Below, piece after piece: positions 3,069 through 36,146 of a DNA stretch of 64,000 nucleotides. This DNA comes from a virus. How positions within the stretch are numbered: the stretch's first letter is position 1; the number at the start of each line of letters is the position of its first letter. Made by a program: the position numbers and the translations under genes. The notes beneath the pieces were generated by a model. It was given only the letters and a program-made list of their open reading frames with translations. It made no database searches and was not told the origin of the DNA. The stretch covers positions 32,001 through 96,000 of IMG/VR virus record IMGVR_UViG_3300030101_003608; one strand, written 5' to 3'.

Positions 3069-5336
3069 TTAATTACCATAAGGTAATGTACTATATCTTG
3101 GTATAAAAGTACTAGAATTCACTGATCCTCCATACCTGCTACTACCACCATCAGGATCTGGAGTAGCATTAGGATCTGGAGTACCATCAGGATCTGGAGT
3201 AGTTGTAGTAGTTGTTGGTGCTTGACCCATAGTTGTAGGATCTACATTTGGATAATACTTTGCAAGACATTTAGCAGGATCATTACCTGCGCCTATACAA
3301 GCTGATAAACTTCTTCTTTGCAAGTTTGTTCCTCCTAAAAAGTTACCTAACCAATCATAGTTCTCTGCAGCATTTTCTAATGATTGTTTCATAACATTCA
3401 TTTTATAAACATCCATTGCTCTTTGATCTCTGTTAGCTCTAATTTGATTAATACCAGCTGTCTCTAAATTTTTTGTATTTGCAACAGCTCTATTATAATC
3501 TGCATCAAGACCTGCTCGCATTTTCTGCTGATTCATTCCAAGTGCTGTTTCATCTTTATAACGTGCAGCACCAAGCATTGCATTTTTATTATACACATCT
3601 GTAACAGTAGATGCTATAGGACCTGTACTAGCCGCATTTACTTTAGCTATCATAGCTTGTTTTTGACCTTCTGTTAACCCTGACATATTTCTAATATCAT
3701 TAATCTGTGCAAGCTGATTACTTTGTTGATTTTGTACAGCTGTTCTATAGTCTAAATAATTTGTTTTTGGTGTAGGCACTATATCCAAACCAACAGGGTC
3801 TGGAGTTGCTAAACGTCTTCTCATAGAAGACATGGGAGGTAAAGCTAAAGGATCACTTTTCTTTTTTTGCTGTATCTCTTCTTCAAACTCTTCTCTACAA
3901 AAAGCTTCTTTAAATCCTGTACACCTTTGTTCTACAGTATAACCTTCAATTCTACCAGAAGCAAGAATTTCTTCAAAAGTCATTTTATTGCTAACAACCC
4001 CATCTTTTTCACATTGACATCCGTTGTTTTCCTCTGTTTCCTCAACCTCAACATAAACATCCTCTATTGTTTCTTCAAATCTTGATTGATCACCTTTACA
4101 TCTTTCCCAAATTTCCTGAGCCTGTGGACTATTAGGATTTAAGTGAGTTTTTCTACTTCCTGTTTTCTCAAATGCTACATCAGGATCTGTAAGTTGTTCC
4201 CAAGTTGCACCATCTTTAATCATATCACAAATTGCACCTTCCCATCCTGATGAAGAAGGTCTTCCAGAACTTCTAGCTTCAGAAGCATTTTTTCTTTCTT
4301 CCCCAGGAGTTATAGTTGTTTCAGACTCAAATCTATCACTATCTGTACGACCTCTAGTTCCTGTACCGGGTAACCTATCAACTTTTTCAGCACGTCTACC
4401 CTCTACTGTTTCACCAGCATCTTGATATTTAGTTAAACCTCCGTTAGCCATAACAAAAGGCATATCATATCCTCCTAGTTCCATACCATAAGCAGCCATA
4501 GGCATAGGCTGTTCCATCTGAGGTGGCATCATTTGCTGTTCTTGCTGCATTGCCATCATCTGTCTAGGATCCATCATAGGTTGCTCTGGAGGAGCCATAC
4601 CTTGTTGTGGCATTGCTACAGGTTGACCATCAGGCATCATAGGAGGCATTCCTTGTGGAGCTTGTGGTTGTTGTTGCATAGCCTGAGCTTGTTGCATTTG
4701 CATAGCCTGCATCTGTTCAGCCTGAGCTTTTAATTCAGGAATTAAATCTTCTTCAGTAATTCCATTAGCTTCCATGTAAGGTTTAGCTATTTCAGGAATG
4801 CCTTGCGGGAATCCTTTCTTAGCTTCTTGAGCTAAAGCAAGAGCACCCAACTTCATGACTATATTCTTAATCATGATTTCTGCAGTGTTTCTAGATAATC
4901 TATCTGTGTCAGGATCCATAAGTATAGCTTTATACTTACTGATATCATAAGGCTTTGCAAGTTCTGCAGGAGTATAACTACCTTTAGTCTTACCAAACAT
5001 TTGTAAGATTTTAGGGTCTTTTATCTTCATTGACTTAGTGTCACTAAAAATAAAACTATCATCTGGAAGATTCATAGGTACACCACCACTAGAATGTCTA
5101 GGGCCTTTTATAGTCATATGATCTACTATACCATCTCCTGATATTTGACCTACTACAGTTTCTCCACCTTCTGCTTCTAAGTTAGCTTCTTCTCGTGGTA
5201 CTCCACCAATAGTTCTTTTAGGTTTTAAAGAGCCTGTTGAATTCTCATCCATACCTCTACCTAAAGATAATCCATAGTCTACTTGTTGCCCATAGGCAGC
5301 TTTTGGTAATCCTAAACTTTTAATTCTAACTTTCAT
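3069..5336 (-). CDS. Putative virion cargo protein, 755 aa (EAEGGE...GPRHSSGGVP N-terminal domain, Q/M/P low-complexity tract)
   Basis: ORF track; position downstream of tail genes; GG motifs (LPKAAYG, MANGG, YQDAG, SRYGG). Confidence 0.6.
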   Translation of the reverse strand: MKVRIKSLGLPKAAYGQQVDYGLSLGRGMDENSTGSLKPKRTIGGVPREEANLEAEGGETVVGQISGDGIVDHMTIKGPRHSSGGVPMNLPDDSFIFSDTKSMKIKDPKILQMFGKTKGSYTPAELAKPYDISKYKAILMDPDTDRLSRNTAEIMIKNIVMKLGALALAQEAKKGFPQGIPEIAKPYMEANGITEEDLIPELKAQAEQMQAMQMQQAQAMQQQPQAPQGMPPMMPDGQPVAMPQQGMAPPEQPMMDPRQMMAMQQEQQMMPPQMEQPMPMAAYGMELGGYDMPFVMANGGLTKYQDAGETVEGRRAEKVDRLPGTGTRGRTDSDRFESETTITPGEERKNASEARSSGRPSSSGWEGAICDMIKDGATWEQLTDPDVAFEKTGSRKTHLNPNSPQAQEIWERCKGDQSRFEETIEDVYVEVEETEENNGCQCEKDGVVSNKMTFEEILASGRIEGYTVEQRCTGFKEAFCREEFEEEIQQKKKSDPLALPPMSSMRRRLATPDPVGLDIVPTPKTNYLDYRTAVQNQQSNQLAQINDIRNMSGLTEGQKQAMIAKVNAASTGPIASTVTDVYNKNAMLGAARYKDETALGMNQQKMRAGLDADYNRAVANTKNLETAGINQIRANRDQRAMDVYKMNVMKQSLENAAENYDWLGNFLGGTNLQRRSLSACIGAGNDPAKCLAKYYPNVDPTTMGQAPTTTTTTPDPDGTPDPNATPDPDGGSSRYGGSVNSSTFIPRYSTLPYGN
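3148..3216 (-). repeat. Tandem 18-bp coding repeat (TPDPDG/TPDPNA x3) after a poly-Thr run
   Basis: ggatctggagta occurs three times at 18-nt spacing. Confidence 0.85.
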
Positions 5337-5340
5337 AGTA

Positions 5341-8300
5341 TTATTCTATAATTTCAATTGAGCCTCCTGCGGCATATATTGCATCTATTTGTTGTGGTGT
5401 TAAATCATATACACCCCCTACTCTGTATTGACCTCCTCTAGCGCCAACATAATTTATTGATGAAGGTCTTGCACTACTAGATTGAATAGGATCATTAAAC
5501 TGTGAGTTAACCATTGATTGATATCCAGTAACAGCATCAAATCCTTGATTTATATCAGTACTTATATTTGATACTTTAGAATCTGAAGTTTGTTTATTAC
5601 GGTCAAATTCTTCTTGTCTACGTGTATCTGCAGCTACACCCCTATCAACAATAAAGTCAGCAAGTCTACTAGCAGTATTAGCTATTAAGGGGTTATTAGT
5701 TTTTCTAGCAGTATTAACTTTAAAATTTTCAGATTTAACTGCGGCATTATAACAGTCACTTCCAACTCGTTGTAACTCAGCTTCTGTACAATCTTCTAAG
5801 TTAAAGTCATCATCTGAAGTATTTTCAACTAGATTCATATTAACTGCATCCTGATCTCCCATGAAATCAGTATCTATTTCTCCAGCCATAAAAAACTTAT
5901 CTAAACCACTGTATATATTTTGACCACCTTCATTAAAGTTATCTTTATTTAAAAATCCTGAATCCTTTCCAGTATAGTAATCTTTAAAACCTTCATACTC
6001 GCTACCATCTATTTTTCCATCATCATCAAATGTATTTTTATTAGGTGTCCATGTAACATTTAATCTGTCTTTTCCTATCTTTTTATCTTTATACTTTAGA
6101 TTCATATTAGCTCCTATGATTCTGTTTCCATCACTATCAAACTGTGCACTTCCATAAGGTTGTGCAATAGTATTAGGTAATCCATCTACTCCTATATATC
6201 CAAAAGCAGCATCTTTATCACCGTCTTTATGAGATAGCCAATCAAATTGTTTTGGTGCATATATATCTCTCACTGTACCAAGAACACCTCTTAAACCTTT
6301 ACCTTGAGTAATAGGTTCAAATGCTGTTTTAAAATGATCTTTAATTTGACCAAAGACTCCTTTAGATGTAGGATAAACTGTTTCTCTATATTTTTGAACC
6401 TCTGCTGAAGGAGACATTGGTCCTAGTACTGGATCCATCTTAGGTTTCTTAAATGCTCCACCTGGTGCAAAGTAAGGATCTGTAATATCTTTATACATAT
6501 CTGGATCATCCATTTCATCTCCACCATATACATACTTATATAAGTCAGGACTTACTGAACCTCCAAAAGCTACACTAGGAAAAGCACTTCTGTTATAGTC
6601 CCTTGGTGAATACTGTTTAGCATTTCCTCCACCAACAAAATCTAAGTCCCATCTTCCATTACCTTTATCTACAATTTTATATTTTTTAGGCTCTTTGATA
6701 TAGTTACGATCAGCTCTTTTAAAATACTCTATAGCAGCTTCTTTAGTCTTAGCATTCTTTGCATGCTTATTATCTAATACTTTTTTGTTTTGTTCAGTAG
6801 CTTGTTTATTTATTTCTTTTGCTCTTTTCTTCTTCTCCTCTATGGTATTCTCTCTCCATCCAGGATAGCTATCAAACCATTTCTTCAGCTTTTCTCCTCC
6901 AGGATCATCCTCATCATAATGTTCATAACCCGAATCTTTAAATATCATTTTATAAATTTCTTCTTTTGAATAACCTTGCTCTAATAGACTATCAATACGT
7001 TCATCCCAATATGCATTTTCATTCCACTTATATGAATCCGCAGGGACATCAGGATCCCCACCTGCTTTTACATAATCATAAACATCAGTAGGATCTTTTT
7101 TCCGCCAAGCCTCTATAGATTTTTCTTTTTTACTTTTTCCAACATTGTCAGGATGCCATTTACTATCACGGTGTTCATCTTGATATTCTTGAGGCATCTC
7201 AGAAAAACTTTTTGTACCATATTCCTTACCTTGCCAAATAAAAGTTGTAGCTCCAGCATCTCTAGCTGTTCTATATGCTTGTGAGAAAGTCATATCATCT
7301 GTAACACCAAAATTATCTGCAGAAACTTCAGTAACTTCATTATCTACAACCTCTTGATTCTGTAAAGCTTCAATTCTTTTTTCTTCATTATAATTTGCTA
7401 TATCTTCTTCTGTAGCATTAGGTCCTAATACCGCTAAAGCTTCAGCATTTGGATCATTTGGATCTATTACATTTTCATCAGCATTGTCCATATCATCTTC
7501 ATCATCAAATATATCTACAGCATCATCATAAGCCTCTATAGCAGGATCTCGTACTACATCAATAAATTCTTCTGAATCTTCTTTTTCATAATTAGTGTTT
7601 TCAACAGGACCAGCTGGATTTTTAGGACGGTCAACCCATTTATTTGCAGTACTATCCCAAATTAAAGTAGGATCTCCCGTTAAATCATTTAATACTTTTT
7701 TAAAATAGTCAAACTCTGACTGTCCATCATTAGGAGGATTATTCTTAAGCTTTAAAGCTCTATCACTATCATCATTGGCTTCATTAATATCTTTTATAAG
7801 AATCTCTGTTGCTGTAACTCCAGGTATTACTCTAGTACCAATATTTCTTGTTGTATTATATCCAGTACCAGCACTACTAGTTCCAAGAGTTCCTCCAAAA
7901 CCTGGTAAAGAAGTATAGTCTAAACCTGATATACCCCACTCTCTTCTACCAAATCCTTTTTTCTTAAAGTAAACATCTACATTAGTATCTTCAAGACCTG
8001 TTCCTTTTCTAGAAAATTCATTAGCTGTATTACGATGACTAAATATTTGAGGCATCATTGAACCTAAATAGTCAGAACCTATAGTAACCATGTCTTTACG
8101 AATCTGGTTATAATCAGGAGGTAATACACTTTTACCTTCATAAATAGAATCATTTAACTCTTGCCAAGTAAAATCACCTCTTTTTAAACCTTTTCTTAAG
8201 GCTTTTCTATCAGATCTTTCATACGGACTTTGTTTACTAGCTCGTCTTGCTATTCCTCTATTTGTTACTCTTCTTGTCCTCCCACCTTTTCTAAACATTT

Positions 8301-8958
8301 CTGACTCATCACTATAATTCATGTCAGCCATTTCTTTAGCATAGAATTCATTACCTTCATCTTTCACACCTTCTATAAATGTATTAAGAGTTGCTGGTTG
8401 TGGTAAAATGCTGCCAGGAGTTTCTGTTTGCATTTCTCTCCCTTCTTTAGCTTCTTTTAAAAGTTTTTTCTTATAACCACCTTTAGACATTTCAGCAGGT
8501 TGTTCTTGCATAGGTTGTTCTTGAGAACCTTCTTGCATCTTAAGAGAAACCATACCTACTAGATCTTTAAATTGAGTCAGCATTTCTTGAGTCATTTGCT
8601 GATCAACCTCTTGACCAGATTGCTGAAGTTTAGCTAAACTTACTTCTACAAATCCTCGTACAATATCATCTTCAGAAACTCCTGAACTAAGTAGTTGCAT
8701 TATAATATTAGGAGGTGTAACATTTTCCTCCATACCTTGCATAATTGCAGCTGTGGCTGAATTTTCTTGGGGTTGACCTGCACCTTGCTGTTGAAGCATT
8801 TGCTCTTGTTGTTGCTGCTGCATCATAGCCATTTCTTCTGGAGATGGTTGTTGCATTCCTTGTTCAGCCTTAAGCATAAACTGCTGCATTTTATTTATTA
8901 CACCAGGTTTTTCACCACCTAATGCTTTTCTGATTCTATATCTTTTTGTTTTTGACAT
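5341..8958 (-). CDS. Putative virion cargo protein, 1205 aa, largely low-complexity, many GG motifs
   Basis: ORF track; poly-Q and acidic tracts; FSQAYRTAR..G...FIWQGKEYGT mini-module; C-terminal DLTPQQIDAIYAAGGSIEIIE. Confidence 0.6.
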   Translation of the reverse strand: MSKTKRYRIRKALGGEKPGVINKMQQFMLKAEQGMQQPSPEEMAMMQQQQQEQMLQQQGAGQPQENSATAAIMQGMEENVTPPNIIMQLLSSGVSEDDIVRGFVEVSLAKLQQSGQEVDQQMTQEMLTQFKDLVGMVSLKMQEGSQEQPMQEQPAEMSKGGYKKKLLKEAKEGREMQTETPGSILPQPATLNTFIEGVKDEGNEFYAKEMADMNYSDESEMFRKGGRTRRVTNRGIARRASKQSPYERSDRKALRKGLKRGDFTWQELNDSIYEGKSVLPPDYNQIRKDMVTIGSDYLGSMMPQIFSHRNTANEFSRKGTGLEDTNVDVYFKKKGFGRREWGISGLDYTSLPGFGGTLGTSSAGTGYNTTRNIGTRVIPGVTATEILIKDINEANDDSDRALKLKNNPPNDGQSEFDYFKKVLNDLTGDPTLIWDSTANKWVDRPKNPAGPVENTNYEKEDSEEFIDVVRDPAIEAYDDAVDIFDDEDDMDNADENVIDPNDPNAEALAVLGPNATEEDIANYNEEKRIEALQNQEVVDNEVTEVSADNFGVTDDMTFSQAYRTARDAGATTFIWQGKEYGTKSFSEMPQEYQDEHRDSKWHPDNVGKSKKEKSIEAWRKKDPTDVYDYVKAGGDPDVPADSYKWNENAYWDERIDSLLEQGYSKEEIYKMIFKDSGYEHYDEDDPGGEKLKKWFDSYPGWRENTIEEKKKRAKEINKQATEQNKKVLDNKHAKNAKTKEAAIEYFKRADRNYIKEPKKYKIVDKGNGRWDLDFVGGGNAKQYSPRDYNRSAFPSVAFGGSVSPDLYKYVYGGDEMDDPDMYKDITDPYFAPGGAFKKPKMDPVLGPMSPSAEVQKYRETVYPTSKGVFGQIKDHFKTAFEPITQGKGLRGVLGTVRDIYAPKQFDWLSHKDGDKDAAFGYIGVDGLPNTIAQPYGSAQFDSDGNRIIGANMNLKYKDKKIGKDRLNVTWTPNKNTFDDDGKIDGSEYEGFKDYYTGKDSGFLNKDNFNEGGQNIYSGLDKFFMAGEIDTDFMGDQDAVNMNLVENTSDDDFNLEDCTEAELQRVGSDCYNAAVKSENFKVNTARKTNNPLIANTASRLADFIVDRGVAADTRRQEEFDRNKQTSDSKVSNISTDINQGFDAVTGYQSMVNSQFNDPIQSSSARPSSINYVGARGGQYRVGGVYDLTPQQIDAIYAAGGSIEIIE

Positions 8959-9018
8959 GTCTAAAAGTACTTATTTATAATATACTAATTTTTAGTTTAA
9001 TGTTTAAACATTTAATGT

Positions 9019-12000
9019 TTAATCTAATTCTTCTAATATATAACCTCCTTCTATATATTTTTTTACATCTTCTGGAGAAAGATCAGCCTCTACAGAACCT
9101 CCTTGCTTATAAGGTACAATTCGTTTTGTACCTTTTAAAACATCGTCAGGAAGTGTAATTTCCCACCAAGTATTTCCATATTCATCAGTTACTTCTCCAA
9201 CTTTTGCATTAGGATACCTTTTTTTCAAGAACTTTTGTAAGGCTTCGTATCTTTCTACTATTTTATATCTAACAGGATCTAATAATTTCCAATAATCATC
9301 TTTACCTATTTTTTCAGGAGTGTCTTTATATTTCTTTAAATAGTTTGTTATTCTTTTACCTTCACTGTTTAGTGTTTTAATTTTATCAACCTCTTCTTCA
9401 GTAAAATATTTAGACTTAAATGTTTTTATCTTTTTAGTGCCTTCACCTGTAGAAACCTCTTCTGTAACATATTGCCATAAAGGTTCATCACTTGTAGCTA
9501 TATCTACTATTTCATCAACAGTCAGTTTATTTGTTAAACCACCTGGCCACTCATTAAATAAGCCTACTAGGTTTATTTTGTCATCTTCTGTTAAATTTTT
9601 ATTAGAAATAACAGCTCCAGCTTTATTAATATCTATATTATTATGAATTAATGCGCCAAAATTTACAACATCATATCCAGATTTTGGGACCTTGCTTATA
9701 TTCTCTAAGGTATAATCTTTACGAGTATTATTGTAGCTTGAATAGTCTTGTATTCTATTAGCAGTGCTACCTGTTGGAAATCTTACTTTTTCATATTTAC
9801 CTGTACTAGCTGCATAAGCTATAGTTTCTTCAACCATTCGCTCAAAATTATACCTTTGAAACAGTCTAGCATCTGGAGCAACCTCCATTTTTTTCCTAGT
9901 CGCTGCAATTTGATTTGCATTAAAAGATTCAGAAGTAGGGTCAATAGTAAAAAGAGACCTACCTAATGCATCTTCTACACGGTTAATAACTGTCTGTAAG
10001 TCTACATCTTGATACTTTGTTTTCATTCCATCAGGCAGTTGATCCTTAAATGAATCTCGTATATAGTCAATATCCTTTTGTAATTCTTCATACTTTGTCT
10101 TAGCTGCAGCTCTTTCATTTCTGAGCCCAAAATATATATCATCAAGCACATCATTATACTGCTCACTATAATCCCACATAAACCCATATCCTTCCTCACC
10201 TTTTGTTCCTTTTACCCAATAATTTCTTCCAGTACTATCTTTTTCCCGGGTCCAACCATCCTTATTAAGTAGTTCCTCCCTATCAGCTAATCCTGCATCC
10301 GACAGTGGTCCTTGTGGTCCCTTATACATTGCACTAATGTCATTATTAGCTTGCTTCATGATTTCTACAAATTCATTTACGGCTAACTCGTCCCTCAGCC
10401 TTGCTGCTGAAGTTTGTTTTCTACCTCTGGGCTGTTGACTAAACTCAGATTGAATCTGATTTGAGAATAATGTCTTAGGAACATTAGCTCTTTCAAAAGT
10501 ATAAACACGTCCTAATGTCTTATCATCTGCACCATGAGCATCTACTCCAAAAGGAAGTTTGTCTTTATTGTTAAAAACTAACTGTCTAGGATTCTTGGTA
10601 TAATTTTTACCGCTTTTTTCAAGGTTTATATCCCAACCTGTCCAATCATTATTTCTAGGTCTACCAATGCTTCTCTGTATTTTTTTTTCATTAATTGTAA
10701 AAAGCTTCTTCTTATCATCTAATTTTGACTTGAGTATATCATATTTATATTCTTCTGCATATAGTTTTTTTCCTGGATCATTATACTTATCTCGTAAACT
10801 CAACCAAACTGGATCACGCTCAAGTATCTCATCTATATTATTTACGTTCACTCCAGGATTAGTCTCAACAATCTTTCTTTCATAATTCTGTACTTCATAT
10901 TGTATTTCATCTATCTCAGAGTTAAGGTCTTTGATTCTTGATTCTGATTGACCTATTTGATATTCTAAATCTTCAATCTCAGAATTTATCTGGTTAAGAT
11001 CTTCAATATCATAGTTCATCATACCTGGATCATACTCATTATTAGCAACAAAATCACTCATGCCTGTTTTATATCCACCATAGAGAGGGTTTCCAGTTGT
11101 ATGTTGCACTTCTATATTAAGTGGTATAATTGTAGAATTTGCTACATCATTTAATTCATCAAAACTAATTTCTGCAGGTATAGTACCATCATAACGATTT
11201 TCTAATTCCTTTTTTATTCTAGATACTTTTAGTGAAGAAGCAGACTCATCCTTTTCCATTATTTTAAATGCTTTTTCTGTAGATACATTTCCCTCACTAT
11301 TTTTTAAGTCTGCAATTTTTCCATTTTCTTCAAGTGTCTTAAATGATCTTTTTGCTTTAGGTTTAAAGGTTTTTGTAAAATCATCATAAATATATCCATC
11401 TTTTTCCCAGGTTTTCATAAATTGACCCGCATCCTTTGGTGCAACAACACCCGTGTGATAATCAGTATTAAATACTATGGATCCATCAGGATTATTTGTA
11501 GCATGATGCATTGGACTTGCTTCTGTTTTTTGTGCCGGAACTGAAGGTGTCGGCTCTATAATTTTAGCACTAGGTATAACAGGAGAAGTTATGTTAGGAA
11601 CAGATAAAGATTTTGTATTTGATAATAAAGGACCTGGGGCATTAACAACAGTAGACGTACTTTTCATTTGTTGTTGCAAAGGTTTAGTTGCAATAGCCCA
11701 CTGACCTGAACCCGTTGTTCCTTGAACTAAAGGTTTATAATTTGTTAAATTATACTCACTAGCTCCTAATCCAATGTCAATATTCCCTTTATAGTTTTTA
11801 TAACGGAATGTAAATGGAAGATTACTTTTATTTAAAAACTTCATAGAAGAAGTTCCTTTACCTAAACCATGTATATATCTACCTGCCTTAAAAGTGTTAC
11901 TATATAAACCAGTACCTATTGGTAATGTACCCACAAAAAGTCCATCATAAAAACCTTGACCAAGTTCTATATCATCTAAAGTCTTACCTGTAAATGCTAC

Positions 12001-13830
12001 CTCTGTAAGATCTTTAACTCCTTTTCCAAATTCTTTTGCAGTTTTTCCAGGTTCCTCAAATGCTCTAATAATACTTGCTCCACCAATTTCAGGAATCACT
12101 CTAAGTTGAGTTTGCAAAGTTTGACGTTTTTCTTCAGTACCTAAATCAGATAAAAGTTTCCAATAGCCTGGAAACTCTTCTTTAGTTGTAGCAGGATCAA
12201 ACCTTGCCCAGTTATTTTCTTTATAATCATCTGCAAAGTATCTAGTAGCCATAGACTTATCTGAATATCTTCCTTTCTTATTTTTAAGATCTTTTCTTGC
12301 TTGTAGATATTGTTTATACTGTAAGTCCTCATATTCTTTATCCTTATATTCCTTTATGAGACTTTGATATTTATCTATATACTTTTTCCAGTCTTCATCA
12401 TTATAACCCATGGGTAAGTCACCATAACCTCTTAATCCAGCTATAACATGATTCATCATTTCAGCTTGCTCTCTTCTAGCTTTCCATTTTTTAAAAAGAC
12501 CTTTTTTATTCTTTCCTCCTGCAATATCTGAAGTTGGTAGATCCATGAAATATCTCATGTCAGGAGCCTGTTTACCAGATAAGATTGCTTCTTGTTCCTC
12601 ATTTACATTAGGTGTATCAGGATCATCAAAAATATAATTTGGATTTAGAATTTTTTTATAACCGGATGTTGCTAAATTATACTTACCTTCTGGAATGTCT
12701 CTAAAAACATAATCTTTATATACATCATCCATGGTAGCTTTGATAAACTTTTTAAATCTTCGTCTATCTGCCCATGTTTCTTTATCTGGACTTTTAGTTT
12801 GTACTATTTTAGCTGATGTAGGTTGTTGATTTGCAGCTTGAAGGGACTTATAAAATTCTTCTAATCTTTGCTCCATAGTTACTGGTGTACCATCAGGGTT
12901 CCATTCATAGTAGCTACCGGACTCAGCCCAATCATCTAAAAACTTATTAAAAGCTTTTCTTTTATCTCTAGGAACTTGAACACCTGATTGAGCTTGTGGT
13001 AATGCACCTCCTTTATATTTTTTAGGTAATGCTTCTTCTTGTTTTTTTGCAAAATACCTGTTAATCCAATCTACTGTAAACTGATTTCTTCGACCCAAAG
13101 GTTTGCCACCTGAAGTTCTAACATGTTCCTTAAGCATTAAGTCTACATCATTGTTTACTACACCTTTTGCAAAGTTTGGAAATTCTTCTATGCCTCCAGC
13201 TACATTATATTGATAATCAGTTAATATTATTTGTTGAGGAACAGAAAGGTTTTCAAAAGTACCTTTTCCATATGTTTTGTTTATATAGTTAGATGCATAT
13301 TTCTTTTTCTCCTCGAAAATTTTTCTCATCATGGTATTCATTTCTTCAGTAGTTATACCTTTATACCAATCACGTTTCTTGGATAAACCTGACAATTTTA
13401 TTCCAGGTCCTATATCATATCCTCCACCTTCTTCTGGAGCTGGATAAGGTTTCCATAATTCAGTTATAGGGTCCCACCCAACTTTAGCCGCATTTTCTTG
13501 GGAGCGCAGTTGATTAAAATAATCATTATATATTTCTTTTTCTTTAGCAACCTTAGCAGCTTTTATCATTTTACCGAATAAACCAGTTCCTGCTTTTTTT
13601 GCAACCTTTGTTGCAGGTTTTGCTACAGCTTTTTTCTTAGGAATATTTATTACTTGACCTATAGAAAGATTGCCATAACTAATTCCTGGATTTGCAGCTC
13701 TTAACTCAGAAGGATTAAAACCATTATCATATGCTATATCGTCAAAAGTATCTCCAGATTTTACACTATAACTTGTACCTCCTCCATCTTGAAAACGTCT
13801 GGGTAATCCAACTATTTGATACTTCTTCAT
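9019..13830 (-). CDS. Virion-associated peptidoglycan hydrolase/cargo protein, 1603 aa (N-terminal LysM + lysozyme-like domain)
   Basis: LysM: YSVKSGDTFDDIA...LRAANPGI...LSIGQVINIP (~13640-13776); lysozyme-like: LRSQEN...YDIGPG...DYQYNV...FPNF...GRRN (~13085-13510). Confidence 0.75.
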   Translation of the reverse strand: MKKYQIVGLPRRFQDGGGTSYSVKSGDTFDDIAYDNGFNPSELRAANPGISYGNLSIGQVINIPKKKAVAKPATKVAKKAGTGLFGKMIKAAKVAKEKEIYNDYFNQLRSQENAAKVGWDPITELWKPYPAPEEGGGYDIGPGIKLSGLSKKRDWYKGITTEEMNTMMRKIFEEKKKYASNYINKTYGKGTFENLSVPQQIILTDYQYNVAGGIEEFPNFAKGVVNNDVDLMLKEHVRTSGGKPLGRRNQFTVDWINRYFAKKQEEALPKKYKGGALPQAQSGVQVPRDKRKAFNKFLDDWAESGSYYEWNPDGTPVTMEQRLEEFYKSLQAANQQPTSAKIVQTKSPDKETWADRRRFKKFIKATMDDVYKDYVFRDIPEGKYNLATSGYKKILNPNYIFDDPDTPNVNEEQEAILSGKQAPDMRYFMDLPTSDIAGGKNKKGLFKKWKARREQAEMMNHVIAGLRGYGDLPMGYNDEDWKKYIDKYQSLIKEYKDKEYEDLQYKQYLQARKDLKNKKGRYSDKSMATRYFADDYKENNWARFDPATTKEEFPGYWKLLSDLGTEEKRQTLQTQLRVIPEIGGASIIRAFEEPGKTAKEFGKGVKDLTEVAFTGKTLDDIELGQGFYDGLFVGTLPIGTGLYSNTFKAGRYIHGLGKGTSSMKFLNKSNLPFTFRYKNYKGNIDIGLGASEYNLTNYKPLVQGTTGSGQWAIATKPLQQQMKSTSTVVNAPGPLLSNTKSLSVPNITSPVIPSAKIIEPTPSVPAQKTEASPMHHATNNPDGSIVFNTDYHTGVVAPKDAGQFMKTWEKDGYIYDDFTKTFKPKAKRSFKTLEENGKIADLKNSEGNVSTEKAFKIMEKDESASSLKVSRIKKELENRYDGTIPAEISFDELNDVANSTIIPLNIEVQHTTGNPLYGGYKTGMSDFVANNEYDPGMMNYDIEDLNQINSEIEDLEYQIGQSESRIKDLNSEIDEIQYEVQNYERKIVETNPGVNVNNIDEILERDPVWLSLRDKYNDPGKKLYAEEYKYDILKSKLDDKKKLFTINEKKIQRSIGRPRNNDWTGWDINLEKSGKNYTKNPRQLVFNNKDKLPFGVDAHGADDKTLGRVYTFERANVPKTLFSNQIQSEFSQQPRGRKQTSAARLRDELAVNEFVEIMKQANNDISAMYKGPQGPLSDAGLADREELLNKDGWTREKDSTGRNYWVKGTKGEEGYGFMWDYSEQYNDVLDDIYFGLRNERAAAKTKYEELQKDIDYIRDSFKDQLPDGMKTKYQDVDLQTVINRVEDALGRSLFTIDPTSESFNANQIAATRKKMEVAPDARLFQRYNFERMVEETIAYAASTGKYEKVRFPTGSTANRIQDYSSYNNTRKDYTLENISKVPKSGYDVVNFGALIHNNIDINKAGAVISNKNLTEDDKINLVGLFNEWPGGLTNKLTVDEIVDIATSDEPLWQYVTEEVSTGEGTKKIKTFKSKYFTEEEVDKIKTLNSEGKRITNYLKKYKDTPEKIGKDDYWKLLDPVRYKIVERYEALQKFLKKRYPNAKVGEVTDEYGNTWWEITLPDDVLKGTKRIVPYKQGGSVEADLSPEDVKKYIEGGYILEELD

Positions 13831-13831
13831 G

Positions 13832-16800: not shown

Positions 16801-16918
16801 CAATACCTAATACAGGATAGTTTACTCCTTTCATAGTTATGCTTCCCCCTACATTTGGAATTAATGTATTCTCTCCAGGAAACTCCCACTGTCCGTATTT
16901 ACTTTTCTTAAATTTCAT
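13832..16918 (-). CDS. Modular cargo protein, 1028 aa, with a zincin-like (HExxH) metallopeptidase domain
   Basis: HEISH at 15719-15733 with downstream Y..RPTETRAR glutamate motif; internal GGYILEE repeats. Confidence 0.65.
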   Translation of the reverse strand: MKFKKSKYGQWEFPGENTLIPNVGGSITMKGVNYPVLGIDDEGNQQMMMPGYDYQFPGNSVYEIPMYDNGGNVSWNFKGKTYSGTLIPSMETDKARYARTHNGNIKTLPKRNLGGSLEFIDVELTEKEADEYAKGGYILEELNEGGELPKAQFGIPGVIDMQSIPKPEEPKPDKNLLDGANESLTNWADENRKDILRGLGEWTGWYPHSKYNKIYFDVEDYNKREDEKRRKRIFKEATKKGVSSPCNEGMIYDHQTKNCISEEEYFEKYPRTEKINKAIKEANESFPKDVQWFRDYMNSPMYKQMLMQSMEADFEKDVADGKPRVSPQRGAQSIAEQRMFNLSNMPAPKYRQKMIHDQDTHEEIPDPDQPIAWIEHSGQVGHNPENLEHYGHSNIHEISHSTDISLENSGRLIPDSDIAYMDKAAAKKYYRSPAWYKRRKQFEDEGWFPEGVDTPRKQWQWYKKKYPDYVKRKERTMNYVERPTETRARLMEIRQVAQKAGIYDPFTQKVDKKAYKKLKRLKNPYDGERLDPMDQLKKSYSDEEIMWMLNNISKNEAPQVEGDDMQMAKEGMFLDIELTKDEAAEYAKGGYILEEMEEGERKKKGYRRVYEEDSGSTEFGERKVVDVYRPNRGVSKTLTKDITYKTEDTPRVKFTEREVTRRYKDGSIKSYKNIRRKNGKLIENASTKKVRYKKGERPHNTIELPKAQDGKAMQAYQDSLDAYNHGLSIYASTGFPFGLGNMDEGMFKARMKSMDETYSNKVPFNLEDPPDYIGKKGFIYDYAFPGNTPKEDIDAYLNFINMGNRLKGTGLWGAKVKPIGYWSHIYDGDYSLGPLYKKPTPPKFVTKTLTRIEKEIKPTYKEAYKNVDKDMYPTLQDFIYAAKYYDKYKRNPKPEDLPSYKAKETFNNSANELKESVRQLNDLDLSLNIEPIPIPQSNLKLSEIEYEDDDLDMSTPKELRQEKRRLRRLKRKKKKNKSKTLNRRLQSKGKRRKREEGGSVNHELGDIVNIDKAAKEQLEKLGYTLKEI

Positions 16919-26388: not shown

Positions 26389-26435
26389 TTTATTTTTATT
26401 TTAATTTATATATATAATTTTTAATTTTTTACTTT

Positions 26436-28100: not shown

Positions 28101-28132
28101 ATTTCTTGTTATTTATAATATACAAATTATTA

Positions 28133-31000: not shown

Positions 31001-31001
31001 T

Positions 31002-31157
31002 TTATTTTACAAATTTGTTTAAGTTACCTTGTTTTATTTTAGCTTCATAAGCTGCTATACATGTTGAACAAACTTGTCTTCCATCTGATGCCGTTCTTTT
31101 TTGACATCCGCATGATAATTGTTTTCCACAGTTTGAACATCTTGATCCTGCTGCCAT
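31002..31157 (-). CDS. Small Cys-rich (Zn-finger-like) protein, 51 aa (missing from ORF track)
   Basis: MAAGSRCSNCGKQLSCGCQKRTASDGRQVCSTCIAAYEAKIKQGNLNKFVK; fills the intergenic gap; AACCAACAA leader. Confidence 0.8.
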   Translation of the reverse strand: MAAGSRCSNCGKQLSCGCQKRTASDGRQVCSTCIAAYEAKIKQGNLNKFVK

Positions 31158-31180
31158 AATTTGTTGGTTTTAATTTTGGT

Positions 31181-31723: not shown

Positions 31724-31734
31724 ATTAGATGAAA

Positions 31735-31773
31735 TAAAAAAAGGGAGAGGAGAAATTAGATCTCACTCTCCCT
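31735..31773 (-). terminator. Intrinsic terminator after the 465-aa gene
   Basis: Minus strand AAGGGAGAG...CTCTCCCTT followed by a U-run. Confidence 0.85.
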
Positions 31774-31793
31774 TATATGAGTAATTAATTATA

Positions 31794-33191: not shown

Positions 33192-33271
33192 TGTTTTTTG
33201 TTTTTAATTTTATAAATAAATAAATAATATACTATAATATACTAAAAGTTTTTTAATTAATCAAATTAAGA

Positions 33272-33970
33272 TTAATTATTTCTTTCAGCAGTTTGCGAAC
33301 CTCTTGGATATTGTACTGGTGATTCTATATCTCCAGCTAATATACTAACAGCTTCATCAATAATTACTTCAATAATATCATCCTTAAATTCAGATTCTAC
33401 TTCTACCAAAGTTTCTTGATTAGTATAAGGATCTACACAACCTTGTATTTGAATTTTTCTAGGTTGTCTATAATAGACTAAGTCTGCTTGTGATATTTCA
33501 AATTCATCATTAGTGTAAATATGAATTTGATTATCAATTAATGTAATAAAAGTTTCTCCCCATTCAAATGAAGGTTGCTTAGATTTATCTCTTAACAATT
33601 GATTTAAATTACCTTCCTCTGCAAGATATACCGTCATTCTTCTATCTTTACAACAATCCTGACATGCAAATACATCTACTCTTTTAAACTGTAAATAGTT
33701 TTCAGGAATAGATCCTCGGAAATGATCTTTCTTATCAGTCAATGAAAGTTGATTATCAGAAAGTAATACCTGAAGATCATCTTTTCTTCTAGTAGATTGT
33801 TCATCACCTTCTTTAACAATATTAAGACCATGCAATTGTCTTCTGCACCATTCTACTTGTGCTTTATTAAAAGCCTCAACAGCTTGCCAACATTCTATAT
33901 TATCATAGTCTTGACTATCAAGCTTGTTAACTCTTTGTTTTAATTTTATGACTATTGCGCTATTTAACAT
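33272..33970 (-). CDS. Putative ring/head-tail connector protein, 232 aa
   Basis: NKLDSQDY...FNKAQ...EQSTRRKDDLQVLL...YYRQPRKI...IIDEAVSI pattern; synteny. Confidence 0.55.
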   Translation of the reverse strand: MLNSAIVIKLKQRVNKLDSQDYDNIECWQAVEAFNKAQVEWCRRQLHGLNIVKEGDEQSTRRKDDLQVLLSDNQLSLTDKKDHFRGSIPENYLQFKRVDVFACQDCCKDRRMTVYLAEEGNLNQLLRDKSKQPSFEWGETFITLIDNQIHIYTNDEFEISQADLVYYRQPRKIQIQGCVDPYTNQETLVEVESEFKDDIIEVIIDEAVSILAGDIESPVQYPRGSQTAERNN

Positions 33971-34179
33971 TATTTCTTTTTCTTTCTTAGTTTACCTAAT
34001 GTAATTGCAAATCTAGCACGTTGAGCAGTCTTACCTTTACCCTTAGCTTTTTCTCTAAGCCAAGATTTTTTAATTCTCTTATTCTTTTTATCATAACCAC
34101 CTTGTCTTTTAGCAGTAGCTGTAAGAGAACCTGGCTTTTTGATTGCCTTCTTGATATTTAACTTCTTCTTTTGTGCCAT
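33970..34179 (-). CDS. Small basic protein, 69 aa
   Basis: K/R-rich; IKKAIKKPGSL...AQRARFAITL. Confidence 0.8.
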   Translation of the reverse strand: MAQKKKLNIKKAIKKPGSLTATAKRQGGYDKKNKRIKKSWLREKAKGKGKTAQRARFAITLGKLRKKKK

Positions 34180-34181
34180 TT

Positions 34182-34247
34182 TTAATATTCCCAGTAGATA
34201 AAAATTTGATCATTTTCTTCTTCTGGTTCTTTAAAAGTTTTATTCAT
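34182..34247 (-). CDS. Possible 21-aa acidic micro-peptide MNKTFKEPEEENDQIFIYWEY
   Basis: ATG 3 nt downstream of a late-promoter motif; fills the gap up to the next gene. Confidence 0.4.
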   Translation of the reverse strand: MNKTFKEPEEENDQIFIYWEY

Positions 34248-34269
34248 ATAGTAATATACAAAAAAATGA

Positions 34270-34542
34270 TCAGCATTTCCATCTTCTCCTAGCTTTTCTC
34301 AAACGGCTGTTTGGATCTTTAGCAGCTTTAGGAAACTTTTTCATTTGACCAAGAGATCTTGCACAATAACTTTTCTTTCTAGCTCCACCACCTGGTTGAG
34401 GTGCTTTAAGATTAGAGCCAGTCTTTCTATTAATCATTTTACGGCCTTTAGCAGTAAGACCACCTTTCTTAGACTTACAACCATTCTTGATTGTACAGCC
34501 TTTCATAGCTCCTTTTTTCTTACTACTTTTTTTAGTTGCCAT
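34270..34542 (-). CDS. Small basic protein, 90 aa (DUF6321-like)
   Basis: KGGLTAKGR...GSNLKAP...RKKSYCARS.GQ...KDPNSRL..ARRRWKC. Confidence 0.75.
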   Translation of the reverse strand: MATKKSSKKKGAMKGCTIKNGCKSKKGGLTAKGRKMINRKTGSNLKAPQPGGGARKKSYCARSLGQMKKFPKAAKDPNSRLRKARRRWKC

Positions 34543-34757
34543 TACTTTTTCTTTTTAAGTCTACGCTTATCGTGATTATATCCTTTAGCTTTTAATTCAA
34601 GATGCTTTTTCATTGTACCAGCCCTAACAGCTTTACCTGATTTTGAATACATCATGTGAGCTTTAAACTTCTTCTTAGCAGTGCTTTTCTTAGCTCCACC
34701 TTTTTTCATTTTAGCCATTTTAGTAGCATCTTTAGTCATTACTTTTGCATATGCCAT
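34542..34757 (-). CDS. Small basic protein, 71 aa
   Basis: K-rich; MKKGG; FKAHMMY...HLELKAKGYNH module. Confidence 0.8.
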   Translation of the reverse strand: MAYAKVMTKDATKMAKMKKGGAKKSTAKKKFKAHMMYSKSGKAVRAGTMKKHLELKAKGYNHDKRRLKKKK

Positions 34758-35029
34758 TATTTCTTTTTTTTAGTTGTTTTTCTTTTTCTTATAGCACTGG
34801 TTCTTCTACCCATGCCAACTCTTTTCTTTTCTGCAACAGCTTTTGTCTTTTGTGACTTAGACATAGAACCCCAGGTTCTAGGAGTCTTTTTAGAAATTTT
34901 TTTACTAGGTCTACACTTCTTAGTTTTCTTATTCTTAGAAGAGCCGCAAGGATTTCCTTTCTCATCCTTCCACTTTTCTTTAAACCACCTTTTCAGTGCA
35001 AGACCCTTAGCTGTTTTTCTTACTGCCAT
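34757..35029 (-). CDS. Small basic protein, 90 aa
   Basis: K/R-rich; LKRWFKEKW...PCG...KCRPSK..S.KTP.T. Confidence 0.8.
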   Translation of the reverse strand: MAVRKTAKGLALKRWFKEKWKDEKGNPCGSSKNKKTKKCRPSKKISKKTPRTWGSMSKSQKTKAVAEKKRVGMGRRTSAIRKRKTTKKKK

Positions 35030-35220
35030 TATCCTATCTTACCTCTACGTTTTCTACATTTAGCAATATATCCACTTGCATAAGCAGATGGAAATACTCT
35101 ATACTTAGCCTTAGCTTTATGATAGCAAGCATCTTTCTTAGACTTTTTTTTCTTAGATCCTCCTTTTCTGAAATATTCTAAAATTTCACCATCAGTATTA
35201 ATTCTTCCGTAACCAGGCAT
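35029..35220 (-). CDS. Small basic protein, 63 aa
   Basis: FRKGG then KDACYHKAK..Y.VFPSAYASG.IAKCRK. Confidence 0.8.
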   Translation of the reverse strand: MPGYGRINTDGEILEYFRKGGSKKKKSKKDACYHKAKAKYRVFPSAYASGYIAKCRKRRGKIG

Positions 35221-35221
35221 C

Positions 35222-35452
35222 TTATTTTCTTTTAAGGGTTTTCTTTCTAGGTAAAGTTTTCTTAGGTGCAGCAGATGATTTACCAGCTATAGTCTGTAGT
35301 TTTTTAACTTCAGCCATAGCAGCTTTTCTAATATCAGCCATTAATTTAGTATCCTTTTGGATATCTTGAGCTCTTTGTAAAGTACTCATTGCTGAAGCTA
35401 CTTCAAACTCACGCATTTCTTTTTTAGTCATAGTGTTAGTAAATTTAATCAT
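35222..35452 (-). CDS. Small basic protein, 76 aa
   Basis: Helical, basic C-terminus; coupled to neighbours. Confidence 0.75.
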   Translation of the reverse strand: MIKFTNTMTKKEMREFEVASAMSTLQRAQDIQKDTKLMADIRKAAMAEVKKLQTIAGKSSAAPKKTLPRKKTLKRK

Positions 35453-35664
35453 TTTACTCTATACTGTTTCATAGGTGTAGCTACTCCACCAGTTCTAAGC
35501 GTTCTTCCTTGAATAGTTCTGGGATTATTAGAATACTTAGGCATTGTTTTACCACAACCGCAGCCTCCACCATATTTCATTTTTTTCATCATTTTGAAAT
35601 CTTGAGCATCAATCTTTCCATTTTTGTTTTTGTCCAGTTTATACTGGTTTCCTTTTAGTGCCAT
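35449..35664 (-). CDS. Small basic protein with EF-hand-like loop, 71 aa
   Basis: DKNKNGKIDAQD (35599-35634); MKYGG and LRTGG motifs. Confidence 0.75.
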   Translation of the reverse strand: MALKGNQYKLDKNKNGKIDAQDFKMMKKMKYGGGCGCGKTMPKYSNNPRTIQGRTLRTGGVATPMKQYRVK

Positions 35665-35675
35665 ATCTTATAATT

Positions 35676-36146
35676 TTACATACATCTTCTACTACCTTTT
35701 GGGTTTCTTGTCCATTGACCACCATGTCCATATTTACCACCCTTTTTCATATTTGTATAGTACTCTGGTTCCGGGCTTGGTTCCTGTGGCCCAAGAGGAA
35801 TTGGTGGAGGATTAAACGGTTGGTCTTTTGGTTCTAGATCTTTAAACTTTCTATTATAGAATTTTTGCATTCTAGCATCTACTCTACCTTTCTTTCTGTC
35901 TAATCTAGCAGCTTGTCTATAAGCTTTTGCTTCTCCTCTCATGTCTTGTCTTGCTTGACGGCCTGGAAACATATTATCTAAGAATGCATCAGCTTTGCTA
36001 TAAAAATTTTGAATAGCTTTTCCTGTTTGTCTTCCTGGTTGAGCTTTAGGTAGCTTTTTTTTCATTTTCTTTACTCCACCTTTTTTATAAGCTTTCATAC
36101 TAGCACCACCTGTTCCATACATCATTTTTTTTCTATATCCTGGCAT
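35676..36146 (-). CDS. Basic protein with multiple GG motifs, 156 aa
   Basis: YGTGG, YKKGG, LPKAQPG, MKKGG, YGHGG. Confidence 0.8.
   Translation of the reverse strand: MPGYRKKMMYGTGGASMKAYKKGGVKKMKKKLPKAQPGRQTGKAIQNFYSKADAFLDNMFPGRQARQDMRGEAKAYRQAARLDRKKGRVDARMQKFYNRKFKDLEPKDQPFNPPPIPLGPQEPSPEPEYYTNMKKGGKYGHGGQWTRNPKGSRRCM

What the first reader, a model, noticed from the sequence alone, without database searches (positions are those of the whole stretch)
3069..36146. Shared double-glycine signal links giant cargo proteins and small basic proteins: candidate GG-directed polyprotein processing or capsid-loading system
Seen: a motif resembling [MFYLA]-x-x-G-G, or the variant LP(K/Q)AQxG, recurs about 30 times in two distant gene sets. 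755 aa: LPKAAYG, MAAYG, MANGG, YQDAG, SRYGG. 1205 aa: KALGG, MSKGG, FRKGG, VAFGG, YVYGG, FAPGG, FNEGG, GARGG. 1603 aa: FQDGG, KYKGGALPQAQSG, YKQGG. 1028 aa: YDNGG, RNLGG, LNEGGELPKAQFG, LPKAQDG, REEGG. Basic proteins: YGTGG, YKKGG, LPKAQPG, MKKGG (twice), YGHGG, MKYGG, LRTGG, FRKGG. The motifs tend to sit at domain boundaries, e.g. FQDGG just before LysM and KYKGG just after the lysozyme-like domain. Three cargo genes start with a short basic leader ending in the motif (MKKYQIVGLPRRFQDGG, MKVRIKSLGLPKAAYG, MSKTKRYRIRKALGG). Established: adenovirus protease cleaves (M/I/L)xGG|x in core proteins, ASFV polyproteins are cut at GG|x, and T4 internal proteins carry a cleaved capsid-targeting sequence. 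Inference: these proteins are packaged in the head and cut or docked at GG sites, releasing effector modules for injection.
Basis: partly seen in the sequence, partly recalled or inferred. Interest (0 to 1): 0.88.

Follow-up and report, generated by a model that had tools for sequence, protein, structure and literature searches.

The report
Gly-Gly seam cassette in crassvirus cargo
A crAss-like phage marks the ends and joints of the cell-wall-attacking proteins it most likely carries in its particle, and several tiny basic head proteins, with one conserved short peptide grammar plus a new 35-residue acidic module; this is real and apparently undescribed, but nothing yet shows that it is cut.

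Summary
Every quoted motif is present. [MFYLA]xxGG is enriched over Gly-matched shuffles only in the four genes after the muzzle gene (17 vs 6.6) and in the eight small basic proteins (8 vs 1.6). It is not enriched in the other giants or the rest of the proteome.

The motifs belong to a larger cassette:
- a bulky-x-x-GG seam;
- a roughly 35-aa acidic module ending in GGYI[VL]EEL;
- a tail, PKAQxG(G).

Cargo genes often end in the module. The next gene opens with a basic leader that copies the module's last strand and tail.

The cassette recurs in 27 related viral contigs, always just after the muzzle gene, and in at least 967 protein clusters. It has no Pfam, NCBIfam or PDB match.

Processing is unsupported. 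No peptidase family was found, the bulky residue sits one position further out than in adenain sites, and leaders persist after gene fission.

My best reading is an uncut hinge and docking or packing handle, as for the docked segments of crAss001 gp45. Cleavage remains a live rival, because HExxH domains exist.

This scan has noted the same motif in several other genomes of the clade.

The parts
16918..22485 (-). Muzzle protein gene (1855 aa), the landmark directly upstream of the cargo genes
   Evidence: Pfam crAss_MUZ 2e-29. Homologues at 44-61% identity precede every module-bearing gene in 27 loci.
13832..16918 (-). Cargo protein 1 (1028 aa): N-terminal beta domain, module, tail, zincin-like payload, module, PKAQxG site, degenerate C-terminal module
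16718..16918 (-). Conserved N-terminal beta domain (residues 1-67), ending at the YDNGG seam
   Evidence: AF2 pLDDT 82-91 for residues 1-67, falling after residue 67. The GG at 70-71 is nearly invariant in 16 relatives.
16490..16603 (-). Acidic module copy a (residues 106-143)
   Evidence: Module HMM 46.6 bits, iE 5e-14.
16454..16489 (-). Post-module tail (residues 144-155), containing NEGG and LPKAQFG
   Evidence: The tail consensus P-K-A-Q-x-G follows 74 internal modules.
15719..15733 (-). HEISH (HExxH) motif of the variable zincin-like payload
   Evidence: The motif is kept as HE[LVWY]SH in some relatives and lost in others.
15128..15232 (-). Acidic module copy b (residues 563-597)
   Evidence: Module HMM 46.8 bits.
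14789..14809 (-). LPKAQDG site (residues 704-710), not preceded by a module
13835..13939 (-). Degenerate module-like C-terminus (residues 994-1028)
   Evidence: Seen only in alignment A1. The strict HMM does not detect it.
9019..13830 (-). Cargo protein 2 (1603 aa): basic leader, LysM, lysozyme-like block, seam and tail, long unknown region, C-terminal module
13780..13830 (-). Basic N-terminal leader (residues 1-17) ending in FQDGG
   Evidence: Internal equivalents sit just before LysM in relatives (L012).
13060..13521 (-). Shuffled lysozyme-like payload (residues 104-257)
   Evidence: Found at varied positions in 9 other proteins, bracketed there by seams and modules. ESM Atlas neighbours are Phage_lysozyme clusters at 0.92, which is a lead only. 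No Pfam or PDB sequence hit.
12982..13020 (-). KYKGG + LPQAQSG seam after the lysozyme-like block (residues 271-283)
9022..9126 (-). C-terminal acidic module (residues 1569-1603); the protein ends in EELD
   Evidence: Module HMM 46.0 bits.
5341..8958 (-). Cargo protein 3 (1205 aa): basic leader (8914-8958), Q/M-rich region, many seams, weak C-terminal module (5344-5433)
   Evidence: The leader family is conserved in 8 phages (A6). The C-terminal module scores only 3.0 bits.
3069..5336 (-). Cargo protein 4 (755 aa): basic leader with LPKAAYG (5289-5336), then a conserved domain
   Evidence: The domain is N-terminal in some relatives and internal in others.
33970..36146 (-). Cluster of eight small basic proteins (63-156 aa) carrying the bulky-x-x-GG motif
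   Evidence: The proteins belong to different families, including DUF6321 and DUF5872. Equivalent clusters occur in 6 relatives.
36033..36146 (-). 38-residue leader of the 156-aa basic protein, with two seams and LPKAQPG
   Evidence: The same PKAQPG-RQT string follows a module in L009.

Best explanation
The window comes from a 110-kb crAss-like phage of a Bacteroidota host.

The four genes after the muzzle gene encode the first-ejected, cell-wall-active cargo proteins, the equivalents of crAss001 C1 and C2. They are strings of exchangeable payload units: LysM, lysozyme-like, zincin-like and others.

Each unit is framed by a conserved junction cassette:
- a seam, [Y/F/M]-[Q/K/R]-x-G-G;
- a roughly 35-residue acidic module (strand, short helix, GG, strand YI[VL]EEL);
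- a tail, P-K-A-Q-x-G(G).

When units are split into separate genes, the upstream gene ends with the module. The downstream gene then starts with a basic leader that copies the last strand and the tail.

Most likely the glycines are hinges that let the string unfold and thread through the tail. The strand-plus-tail and the module are then uncut handles that a conserved virion part (portal, ring or muzzle proteins, or scaffold) grips to pack and order these proteins.

The small basic head proteins reuse the short seam as a repeated handle.

What is shown: the cassette, its distribution and its positions. What is inferred: virion location, docking, and absence of cleavage.
For: Identity and context:
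- Crass_capsid, Ring 1 and 2, and crAss_MUZ Pfam hits set the gene order.
- In crAss001 the genes after the muzzle are virion cargo. Short segments of gp45 dock in 12 copies on the portal and on rings R1/R2 (PMC10172136).

The cassette is real and specific:
- Shuffle tests.
- Module alignment of 38 copies.
- 27 loci, all directly after a muzzle homologue.
- 967 protein clusters at E<=1e-3, with 2-4 copies each. In the best 150, 87 of 149 proteins end exactly in the module, and 74 internal copies are followed by P-K(47%)-A(73%)-Q(74%)-x-G(81%).
- The seam logo over 1425 GG sites has Y/F/M 48% at -3, Q/K/R 54% at -2 and Y/I/V after GG.

Argument for a handle rather than a separator:
- In 13 of 17 unique cargo gene junctions the upstream gene ends in the module. 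All 17 downstream genes start with a conserved basic leader carrying the seam or tail.
- Module conservation matches that of the structural proteins, while payloads turn over.

Further support:
- AF2 gives only an isolated helix flanked by extended arms (pLDDT 72-88 in the core). That fits strands needing a partner.
- Seams lie at fold borders.
- In crAss001 gp45, A-[Y/F]-GG sites lie 4, 2 and 10 residues from three of the four ends of the cryo-EM-resolved docked segments. This was a post hoc observation.
- The seam also occurs 4 times in the MS-detected virion protein gp040 of cultured Cellulophaga phage phi4:1.
Against: - No binding partner has been identified.
- The RNAP-type giants, which should also be packed, lack the cassette, so it is not a universal loading signal.
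- The G001 and G002 basic proteins lack the seam.
- Three virion-type proteins carry HExxH motifs. Two are conserved in G001 and could be processing peptidases, as proposed for polyvalent proteins (PMC5512222).
- crAss001 proteomics used a single excised gel band with trypsin, so cleavage was never tested there.
- Virion location of these particular proteins is inferred from synteny only.
Confidence: 0.42

Rival explanations
1. Processing model. The seams and PKAQxG tails are cleavage sites. The cargo proteins are polyproteins cut in the head or after ejection, by a phage zincin-like peptidase or an unrecognised or host protease. Cutting releases enzyme modules, acidic 35-aa peptides, leaders and basic peptides, as in adenovirus core maturation or T4 capsid-targeting-sequence removal.
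For: - Sequence-specific sites lie exactly at domain borders and at the end of short N-terminal leaders on unrelated proteins.
- Gene ends and internal joints are interchangeable.
- HExxH motifs occur in cargo 1 and in two giants, and are conserved in G001.
- Iyer et al. predict autoproteolysis by such domains in packaged polyvalent proteins, and P1 DdrB is processed (PMC5512222).
- Published crAss001 MS could not have detected cleavage.
Against: - No peptidase family was detected in any ORF.
- The cargo-1 zincin is missing or has lost HExxH in many relatives that keep the cassette.
- The spacing differs from adenain, ubiquitin-like and bacteriocin GG sites.
- Many tails have a single Gly.
- Tandem seams 9 residues apart and seams 5-7 residues from C-termini in basic proteins make odd cleavage products.
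- Leaders are retained and strongly conserved after fission.
- N4 vRNAP carries an HExxH domain yet is packaged unprocessed (PMC5512222).
Confidence: 0.28
2. Passive linker model. The glycines and flanking residues are only flexible, protease-resistant linkers. The acidic module is a small spacer or solubility domain that travels with payload cassettes by recombination. No factor reads them.
For: - Payload cassettes are shuffled together with their flanks, and recombination at repeated linkers would itself preserve them.
- Overall GG density is only 1.2 times expectation in 150 family members.
- The module has low to moderate AF2 confidence on its own.
Against: - Inert linkers rarely keep specific residues (P, K, A, Q, G; Y/F/M at a fixed offset) across proteins whose payloads are unalignable.
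- The same seam appears in unrelated small basic proteins encoded 17 kb away, in 5 of 7 genomes examined.
- N-terminal leaders copy the strand and tail although nothing lies upstream to be linked.
Confidence: 0.2
3. Head-to-tail coupling. The basic leader of each cargo protein pairs with the acidic C-terminal module of the protein encoded just upstream. Separate gene products would then form a non-covalent train that leaves the tail in gene order.
For: - Charges are complementary: module core mean -5.1, leaders mean +4.4.
- In 13 of 17 junctions a module end meets a leader start.
Against: - In 4 of 17 junctions, including G001 and L009, the leader is present although the upstream protein has no C-terminal module.
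- In fused forms there is no extra strand to pair.
Confidence: 0.07

Closest known systems
Cargo proteins C1 (gp45) and C2 (gp46) of Bacteroides phage crAss001 (Bayfield et al. 2023, PMC10172136)
   Same: - They are encoded directly after the muzzle gene and are packed in the virion.
- They are thought to leave first and act at the envelope.
- Short segments of C1 dock in 12 copies on the portal and ring proteins.
- gp45 also has a basic N-terminal leader ending in GG, A-[Y/F]-GG sites next to the docked segments, and a basic GG-containing C-terminal tail.
   Different: - No detectable sequence homology (no Pfam or PDB hit).
- gp45 lacks the 35-aa acidic module and the PKAQxG tail.
- Its bulky residue directly precedes GG.
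- The clade studied here has 3-4 modular cargo genes carrying swapped enzyme payloads.
Polyvalent proteins of phages and conjugative elements (Iyer, Burroughs, Anand, de Souza, Aravind 2017, PMC5512222)
   Same: - Large virion-delivered proteins that combine unrelated effector domains: lysozyme or transglycosylase, and zincin-like HExxH domains.
- Rapid domain shuffling.
- Autoprocessing was proposed but is mostly untested.
   Different: - The word 'linker' does not occur in that paper's main text, so it appears to describe no conserved junction peptide, acidic module or leader.
- The HExxH regions here match no peptidase HMM.
Adenovirus protease (adenain) sites in core and cement precursors; ASFV pS273R GG|X sites
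   Same: A bulky residue followed by Gly-Gly recurs in small basic DNA-associated proteins and in large internal proteins of a dsDNA virus particle.
   Different: - The consensus is offset by one residue: bulky at P5 here, P4 in (M/I/L)XGG (the adenain consensus is from established knowledge).
- No clan-CE protease gene was found.
- No cleavage data exist.
Capsid targeting sequences of phage T4 internal proteins
   Same: A short conserved N-terminal leader is shared by otherwise unrelated proteins that are packed in the head and ejected.
   Different: - T4 leaders end in L/I-x-E and are removed by the gp21 prohead protease. No such protease or motif occurs here.
- The signal here also occurs internally and pairs with a C-terminal module.

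Membership tests
crAss-like (Crassvirales-type) virion module | Crass-type major capsid, ring 1, ring 2 and muzzle proteins in conserved order | tested here: met
   Pfam Crass_capsid 1e-29, CrAss_Ring_1 1e-11, CrAss_Ring_2 1e-22, crAss_MUZ 2e-29.
crAss001-type cargo proteins C1/C2 | Encoded immediately downstream of the muzzle gene | tested here: met
   Genes at 13832-16918, 9019-13830, 5341-8958 and 3069-5336 follow the muzzle gene on the same strand. The same holds in 27 loci.
crAss001-type cargo proteins C1/C2 | Sequence homology to gp45/gp46 | tested here: not met
   No Pfam, PHROG or PDB-sequence hit for the 1028, 1205 and 755 aa proteins. The module HMM finds nothing in gp45-gp47.
crAss001-type cargo proteins C1/C2 | Presence in virions, with segments docked on portal, rings or muzzle | not testable with these tools
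   Needs proteomics or cryo-EM. The distant relative phi4:1 gp040 and gp041 are annotated as MS/MS-detected virion proteins.
Adenain/ASFV-type GG-directed processing | Substrate consensus (M/I/L)-X-G-G|X or (M/I/L)-X-G-X|G | tested here: not met
   Over 1425 GG sites the bulky residue lies two residues before GG, and the residue directly before GG is D/K/E. PKAQxG tails often have a single Gly.
Adenain/ASFV-type GG-directed processing | A clan-CE cysteine protease gene in the genome | tested here: not met
   hmmscan of all ORFs of 50 aa or more in the 110-kb genome against Pfam found no peptidase family at E<=0.001-0.01.
Adenain/ASFV-type GG-directed processing | Neo-termini at GG in virion proteins | not testable with these tools
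   No proteomic data are available for this clade.
T4-type capsid targeting sequence | Short conserved N-terminal leader on unrelated packed proteins | tested here: met
   Leaders are present on 3 G000 cargo genes, on the 156-aa protein, and on all 17 unique downstream cargo genes in relatives.
T4-type capsid targeting sequence | Removal by a prohead serine protease (S77/S78) at L/I-x-E | tested here: not met
   No prohead protease family was found, and the motif differs. The protein between portal and MCP looks scaffold-like only at lead level.
Polyvalent proteins (Iyer et al. 2017) | Two or more unrelated effector domains in one phage polypeptide delivered with the DNA | tested here: met
   The proteins combine LysM (4.5e-9) with a lysozyme-like block, an HExxH block and unknown blocks, and these are shuffled among relatives. 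Delivery with the DNA is inferred.
Polyvalent proteins (Iyer et al. 2017) | Zincin-like metallopeptidase domain | tested here: inconclusive
   HExxH motifs occur at residue 396 of the 1028-aa protein and in the 2635- and 1632-aa giants, and are conserved in G001. No HMM or PDB match confirms the fold.
Double-glycine bacteriocin leader / C39 peptidase system | Leader consensus LSxxELxxIxGG plus a C39 peptidase | tested here: not met
   The module helix before its internal GG resembles this leader, but the hydrophobic register is shifted by one. There was no NCBIfam hit at E<=10 and no C39 domain in the phage.

The most novel reading that the evidence does not exclude
The seams and PKAQxG tails are true cleavage sites read by a virion-packaged zincin-like peptidase (the conserved HExxH domains of the giant proteins) or by an unrecognised protease. 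This would be the first polyprotein-maturation system of crAss-like phages. It would release enzyme modules for the periplasm, acidic 35-residue peptides, and small basic DNA-bound peptides, a bacterial-virus parallel to adenovirus core maturation. It could also explain how parts of crAss001 gp45 sit on both sides of the portal.
Probability: 0.25. Interest if true: 0.85.

Novelty: new variant of a known kind. Interest (0 to 1): 0.62.

Why it matters
How crassviruses load about 5 MDa of protein into the particle, keep it in order, and feed it through the tail is unknown.

A short signal conserved across about a thousand protein clusters, framing every exchangeable enzyme unit of the first-ejected cargo, gives that question a concrete handle:
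- It predicts which peptides to look for in cryo-EM maps.
- It predicts where neo-termini should appear if processing occurs.
- It shows where payloads can be swapped.
- It defines an unannotated 35-residue module that would improve annotation of many marine and freshwater phage genomes.

Tried and rejected
- Complex prediction of the C-terminal module (A5) against the next gene's leader (A6): no verdict, score 0.31 against a mark of 0.32, controls not run. This counts neither for nor against binding.
- Megablast of the cargo region against INPHARED: no match.
- tblastn of the module against 50,697 phage records: no match at E<=1.
- Pfam and NCBIfam on module peptides: nothing, apart from a sub-threshold XkdX hit at E 0.02.
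- PDB sequence searches for cargo 1, the lysozyme-like block, the 433- and 339-aa head proteins and the two giant HExxH regions: nothing meaningful.
- Foldseek of the N-terminal beta domain: no match at E<=0.001.
- First attempt at search for related loci with all eight module copies failed because the alignment was too divergent.
- Cargo-1 zincin as a universal maturation protease: rejected. Only some relatives have it, and several have lost HExxH.
- Module as part of the basic proteins: rejected. HMM scores are below 1 bit, and only the 5-residue seam is shared.
- Paper searches for the motif strings and for DUF6321/DUF5872 found nothing relevant.
Full report
**What the window is.** The window is bases 32001-96000 of a 110,525-base virus record.
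- On the minus strand it encodes terminase, portal, a scaffold-like acidic protein, and a Crass-type major capsid protein (Pfam 1e-29).
- These are followed by a cluster of eight small basic proteins, fibre proteins, ring proteins 2 and 1, and a 1855-aa muzzle protein (crAss_MUZ 2e-29).
- After the muzzle gene comes a run of very large genes of 1028, 1603, 1205, 755 and 1174 aa. Outside the window the run continues with 2160, 1632, 1917 and 2635 aa.
- A CHU_C type IX secretion domain points to a Bacteroidota host. So do distant cultured relatives that infect Cellulophaga and Flavobacterium.
- In crAss001 the genes after the muzzle gene are the virion cargo proteins C1 and C2, followed by RNA-polymerase-associated giants (PMC10172136).

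**Checking the observation.** I shuffled each protein separately, which preserves its glycine content:

| Pattern and protein set | Observed | Expected |
|---|---|---|
| [MFYLA]..GG, four post-muzzle proteins | 17 | 6.6 (0/400 shuffles reach it) |
| [MFYLA]..GG, eight basic proteins | 8 | 1.6 (0/400) |
| [MFYLA]..GG, five further giants | 7 | 7.8 |
| [MFYLA]..GG, other 85 ORFs | 14 | 19 |
| LP[KQ]A[QA].G, whole proteome | 5 | about 0 |

All five LP[KQ]A[QA].G copies fall in the cargo and basic sets.

**What the motifs are part of.** Self-comparison and inspection showed that many of the GG strings belong to one roughly 35-residue acidic module.
- Its layout is: bulky-x-x-x-GG, a short strand, [D/E]-L-[T/S], a 9-residue helix ending in Y-x-x-GG, then the strand YI[VL]EEL.
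- G000 has three strong copies: two inside the 1028-aa protein and one at the C-terminus of the 1603-aa protein, at 46-47 bits each.
- Degenerate copies end the 1028- and 1205-aa proteins.
- LPKAQxG is the tail that follows the module.

**Relatives.** One relative, G001, has an 85% identical capsid protein but almost unalignable cargo payloads. It carries the same module, tails and seams with the same enrichment: 21 vs 6.8, and 4 vs 0.04 for the tail.
- A pattern search with the module found 27 viral contigs. In every one the module-bearing gene lies directly after a muzzle homologue of 44-61% identity.
- A profile search of 1.84 billion representative proteins found 967 proteins at E<=1e-3 and 449 at E<=1e-10, mostly with 2-4 copies each.
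- In the best 150, 87 of 149 proteins end exactly in the module.
- There, 74 internal copies are followed by P-K(47%)-A(73%)-Q(74%)-x-G(81%). The other internal copies are followed by SVPSLTKAQxG-type or [D/N]-x-[Y/F]-[Q/K]-x-GG-type tails.
- A position count over 1425 GG sites gives the seam logo [Y/F/M]-[Q/K/R]-[D/K/E]-G-G-[Y/S]-[I/V].
- The module matches nothing in Pfam, NCBIfam, PHROGs, PDB sequences or the 50,697 INPHARED phages. I also found no paper naming it.

**Gene junctions.** In 13 of 17 distinct junctions between cargo genes, the upstream gene ends in the module.
- All 17 downstream genes open with a conserved basic leader. Its strand and tail copy the end of an internal module, with K/R in place of E.
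- The three junctions in G000 follow this rule.
- Net charge is about -5 for the module core and about +4 for leaders.
- So the same unit can be fused or split: leader or tail, then payload, then module. After a split, both handles are kept.

**Domain borders.**
- FQDGG ends three residues before the Pfam LysM domain.
- The YDNGG seam follows a confidently predicted beta domain, residues 1-67 with pLDDT 82-91. Its GG is nearly invariant in 16 relatives.
- The lysozyme-like block (residues 104-257 of the 1603-aa protein) occurs at different positions in nine other proteins. It is always preceded by a seam and followed by a module.
- That this block is a lysozyme is supported only at lead level by ESM Atlas neighbours.

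**The basic proteins.** The eight small proteins are not paralogues. One is DUF6321 and one is DUF5872, and none contains the module.
- The short seam is strongly over-represented in them.
- It is also over-represented in the equivalent clusters of four of six further relatives, for example 11 vs 1.5 in G005, where all 11 start with Met.
- There it forms tandem units about nine residues apart. It also lies 5-7 residues from several C-termini.
- The 156-aa protein shares a ten-residue PKAQPG-containing string with a cargo protein of another phage.
- The link between the two gene sets is therefore real, but it is limited to the short seam and tail. It is missing in G001 and G002.

**Cut or not.** I found no peptidase family in any ORF of the genome.
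- The zincin-like payload of cargo 1 is present in only some relatives. Several of them have lost HExxH, so it cannot be the general reader of the signal.
- Two giants carry HExxH motifs conserved in G001.
- Such domains are the commonest peptidases of 'polyvalent proteins' and were proposed to autoprocess. However, N4 vRNAP carries one and is packed unprocessed (PMC5512222; PMC13434306).
- The seam differs by one residue in register from adenain, ubiquitin-like and bacteriocin GG sites.
- Leaders retained after gene fission argue that the signal has a role beyond separating domains.
- AF2 sees only a helix with extended arms for the isolated module. This fits strands that need a partner.
- In crAss001 gp45, A-[Y/F]-GG sites lie 4, 2 and 10 residues from three of the four ends of the two cryo-EM-resolved docked segments. 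That protein also has a basic GG leader and a basic GG tail. This was noticed after the fact, and I put the chance probability very roughly at 0.01.
- The crAss001 mass spectrometry could not have revealed cleavage.

**Verdict.**
- The best reading (0.42) is an uncut hinge-and-handle cassette that packs and orders the first-ejected, wall-active cargo.
- Cleavage (0.28) and a passive linker (0.20) remain open.
- Head-to-tail coupling is weak (0.07).
- Other agents of this scan reached the same open question on other genomes of this clade. I found no publication describing the cassette.

Noticed in passing
L038:4482-4739 (G000 100381-100638, outside the window): An 85-aa phage gene matches the ClpS adaptor of the ClpAP N-degron pathway (Pfam 7.6e-12 among the members of A4). 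If any cargo were cut after GG, many new N-termini would be Y, F or L, the residues ClpS recognises.
   Followed up: no
L036:6328-14235 (residue 847) and L037:86-4984 (residue 993); G001 counterparts: HExxH motifs with conserved flanks occur in the 2635- and 1632-aa giants of both phages. No HMM or PDB match was found. N4 vRNAP carries a comparable unexplained HExxH domain.
   Followed up: partly
window 35029-35220 and 34757-35029; L040 2068-2406, L041 1755-2093: The 63-aa basic protein (minus its GG leader) and the DUF5872 protein are separate genes here. In two relatives they form one 112-aa protein. The GG-bearing leader is therefore an optional add-on.
   Followed up: partly
window 35449-35664: The 71-aa basic protein has an EF-hand-like calcium loop near its N-terminus (EF-hand_1 E 2.9e-4, below Pfam's cut-off), followed by a CGCG motif.
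   Followed up: no
window 24889-31157: The three fibre-like proteins (499, 554, 955 aa) and a 51-aa ORF all begin with Cys-rich N-termini. These are conserved in G001 and may be disulfide or metal anchors to the tail.
   Followed up: no
window 57939-58661: A 240-aa protein has a signal peptide and a CHU_C type IX secretion domain (Pfam 8.5e-10 among the members of A4). It looks like a phage-encoded T9SS substrate.
   Followed up: no
L044 (Cellulophaga phage phi4:1) 26296-31202: The cultured, MS-verified virion proteins gp041 (tail-lysozyme-like N-terminus, two HExxH) and gp040 (four [F/Y]-Q-x-GG seams, a degenerate module) form a distant version of the same cargo system. They offer an experimental entry point.
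   Followed up: partly
L045 (crAss001) 3988-6516: gp45 has five A-[Y/F/E]-GG sites. Three of them lie within 10 residues of the ends of the cryo-EM-resolved docked segments 214-245 and 425-552.
   Followed up: partly
window 38926-40227: The 433-aa acidic protein between portal and capsid genes has no family. Its nearest named ESM Atlas clusters are phage scaffolding proteins (0.82, lead only).
   Followed up: partly
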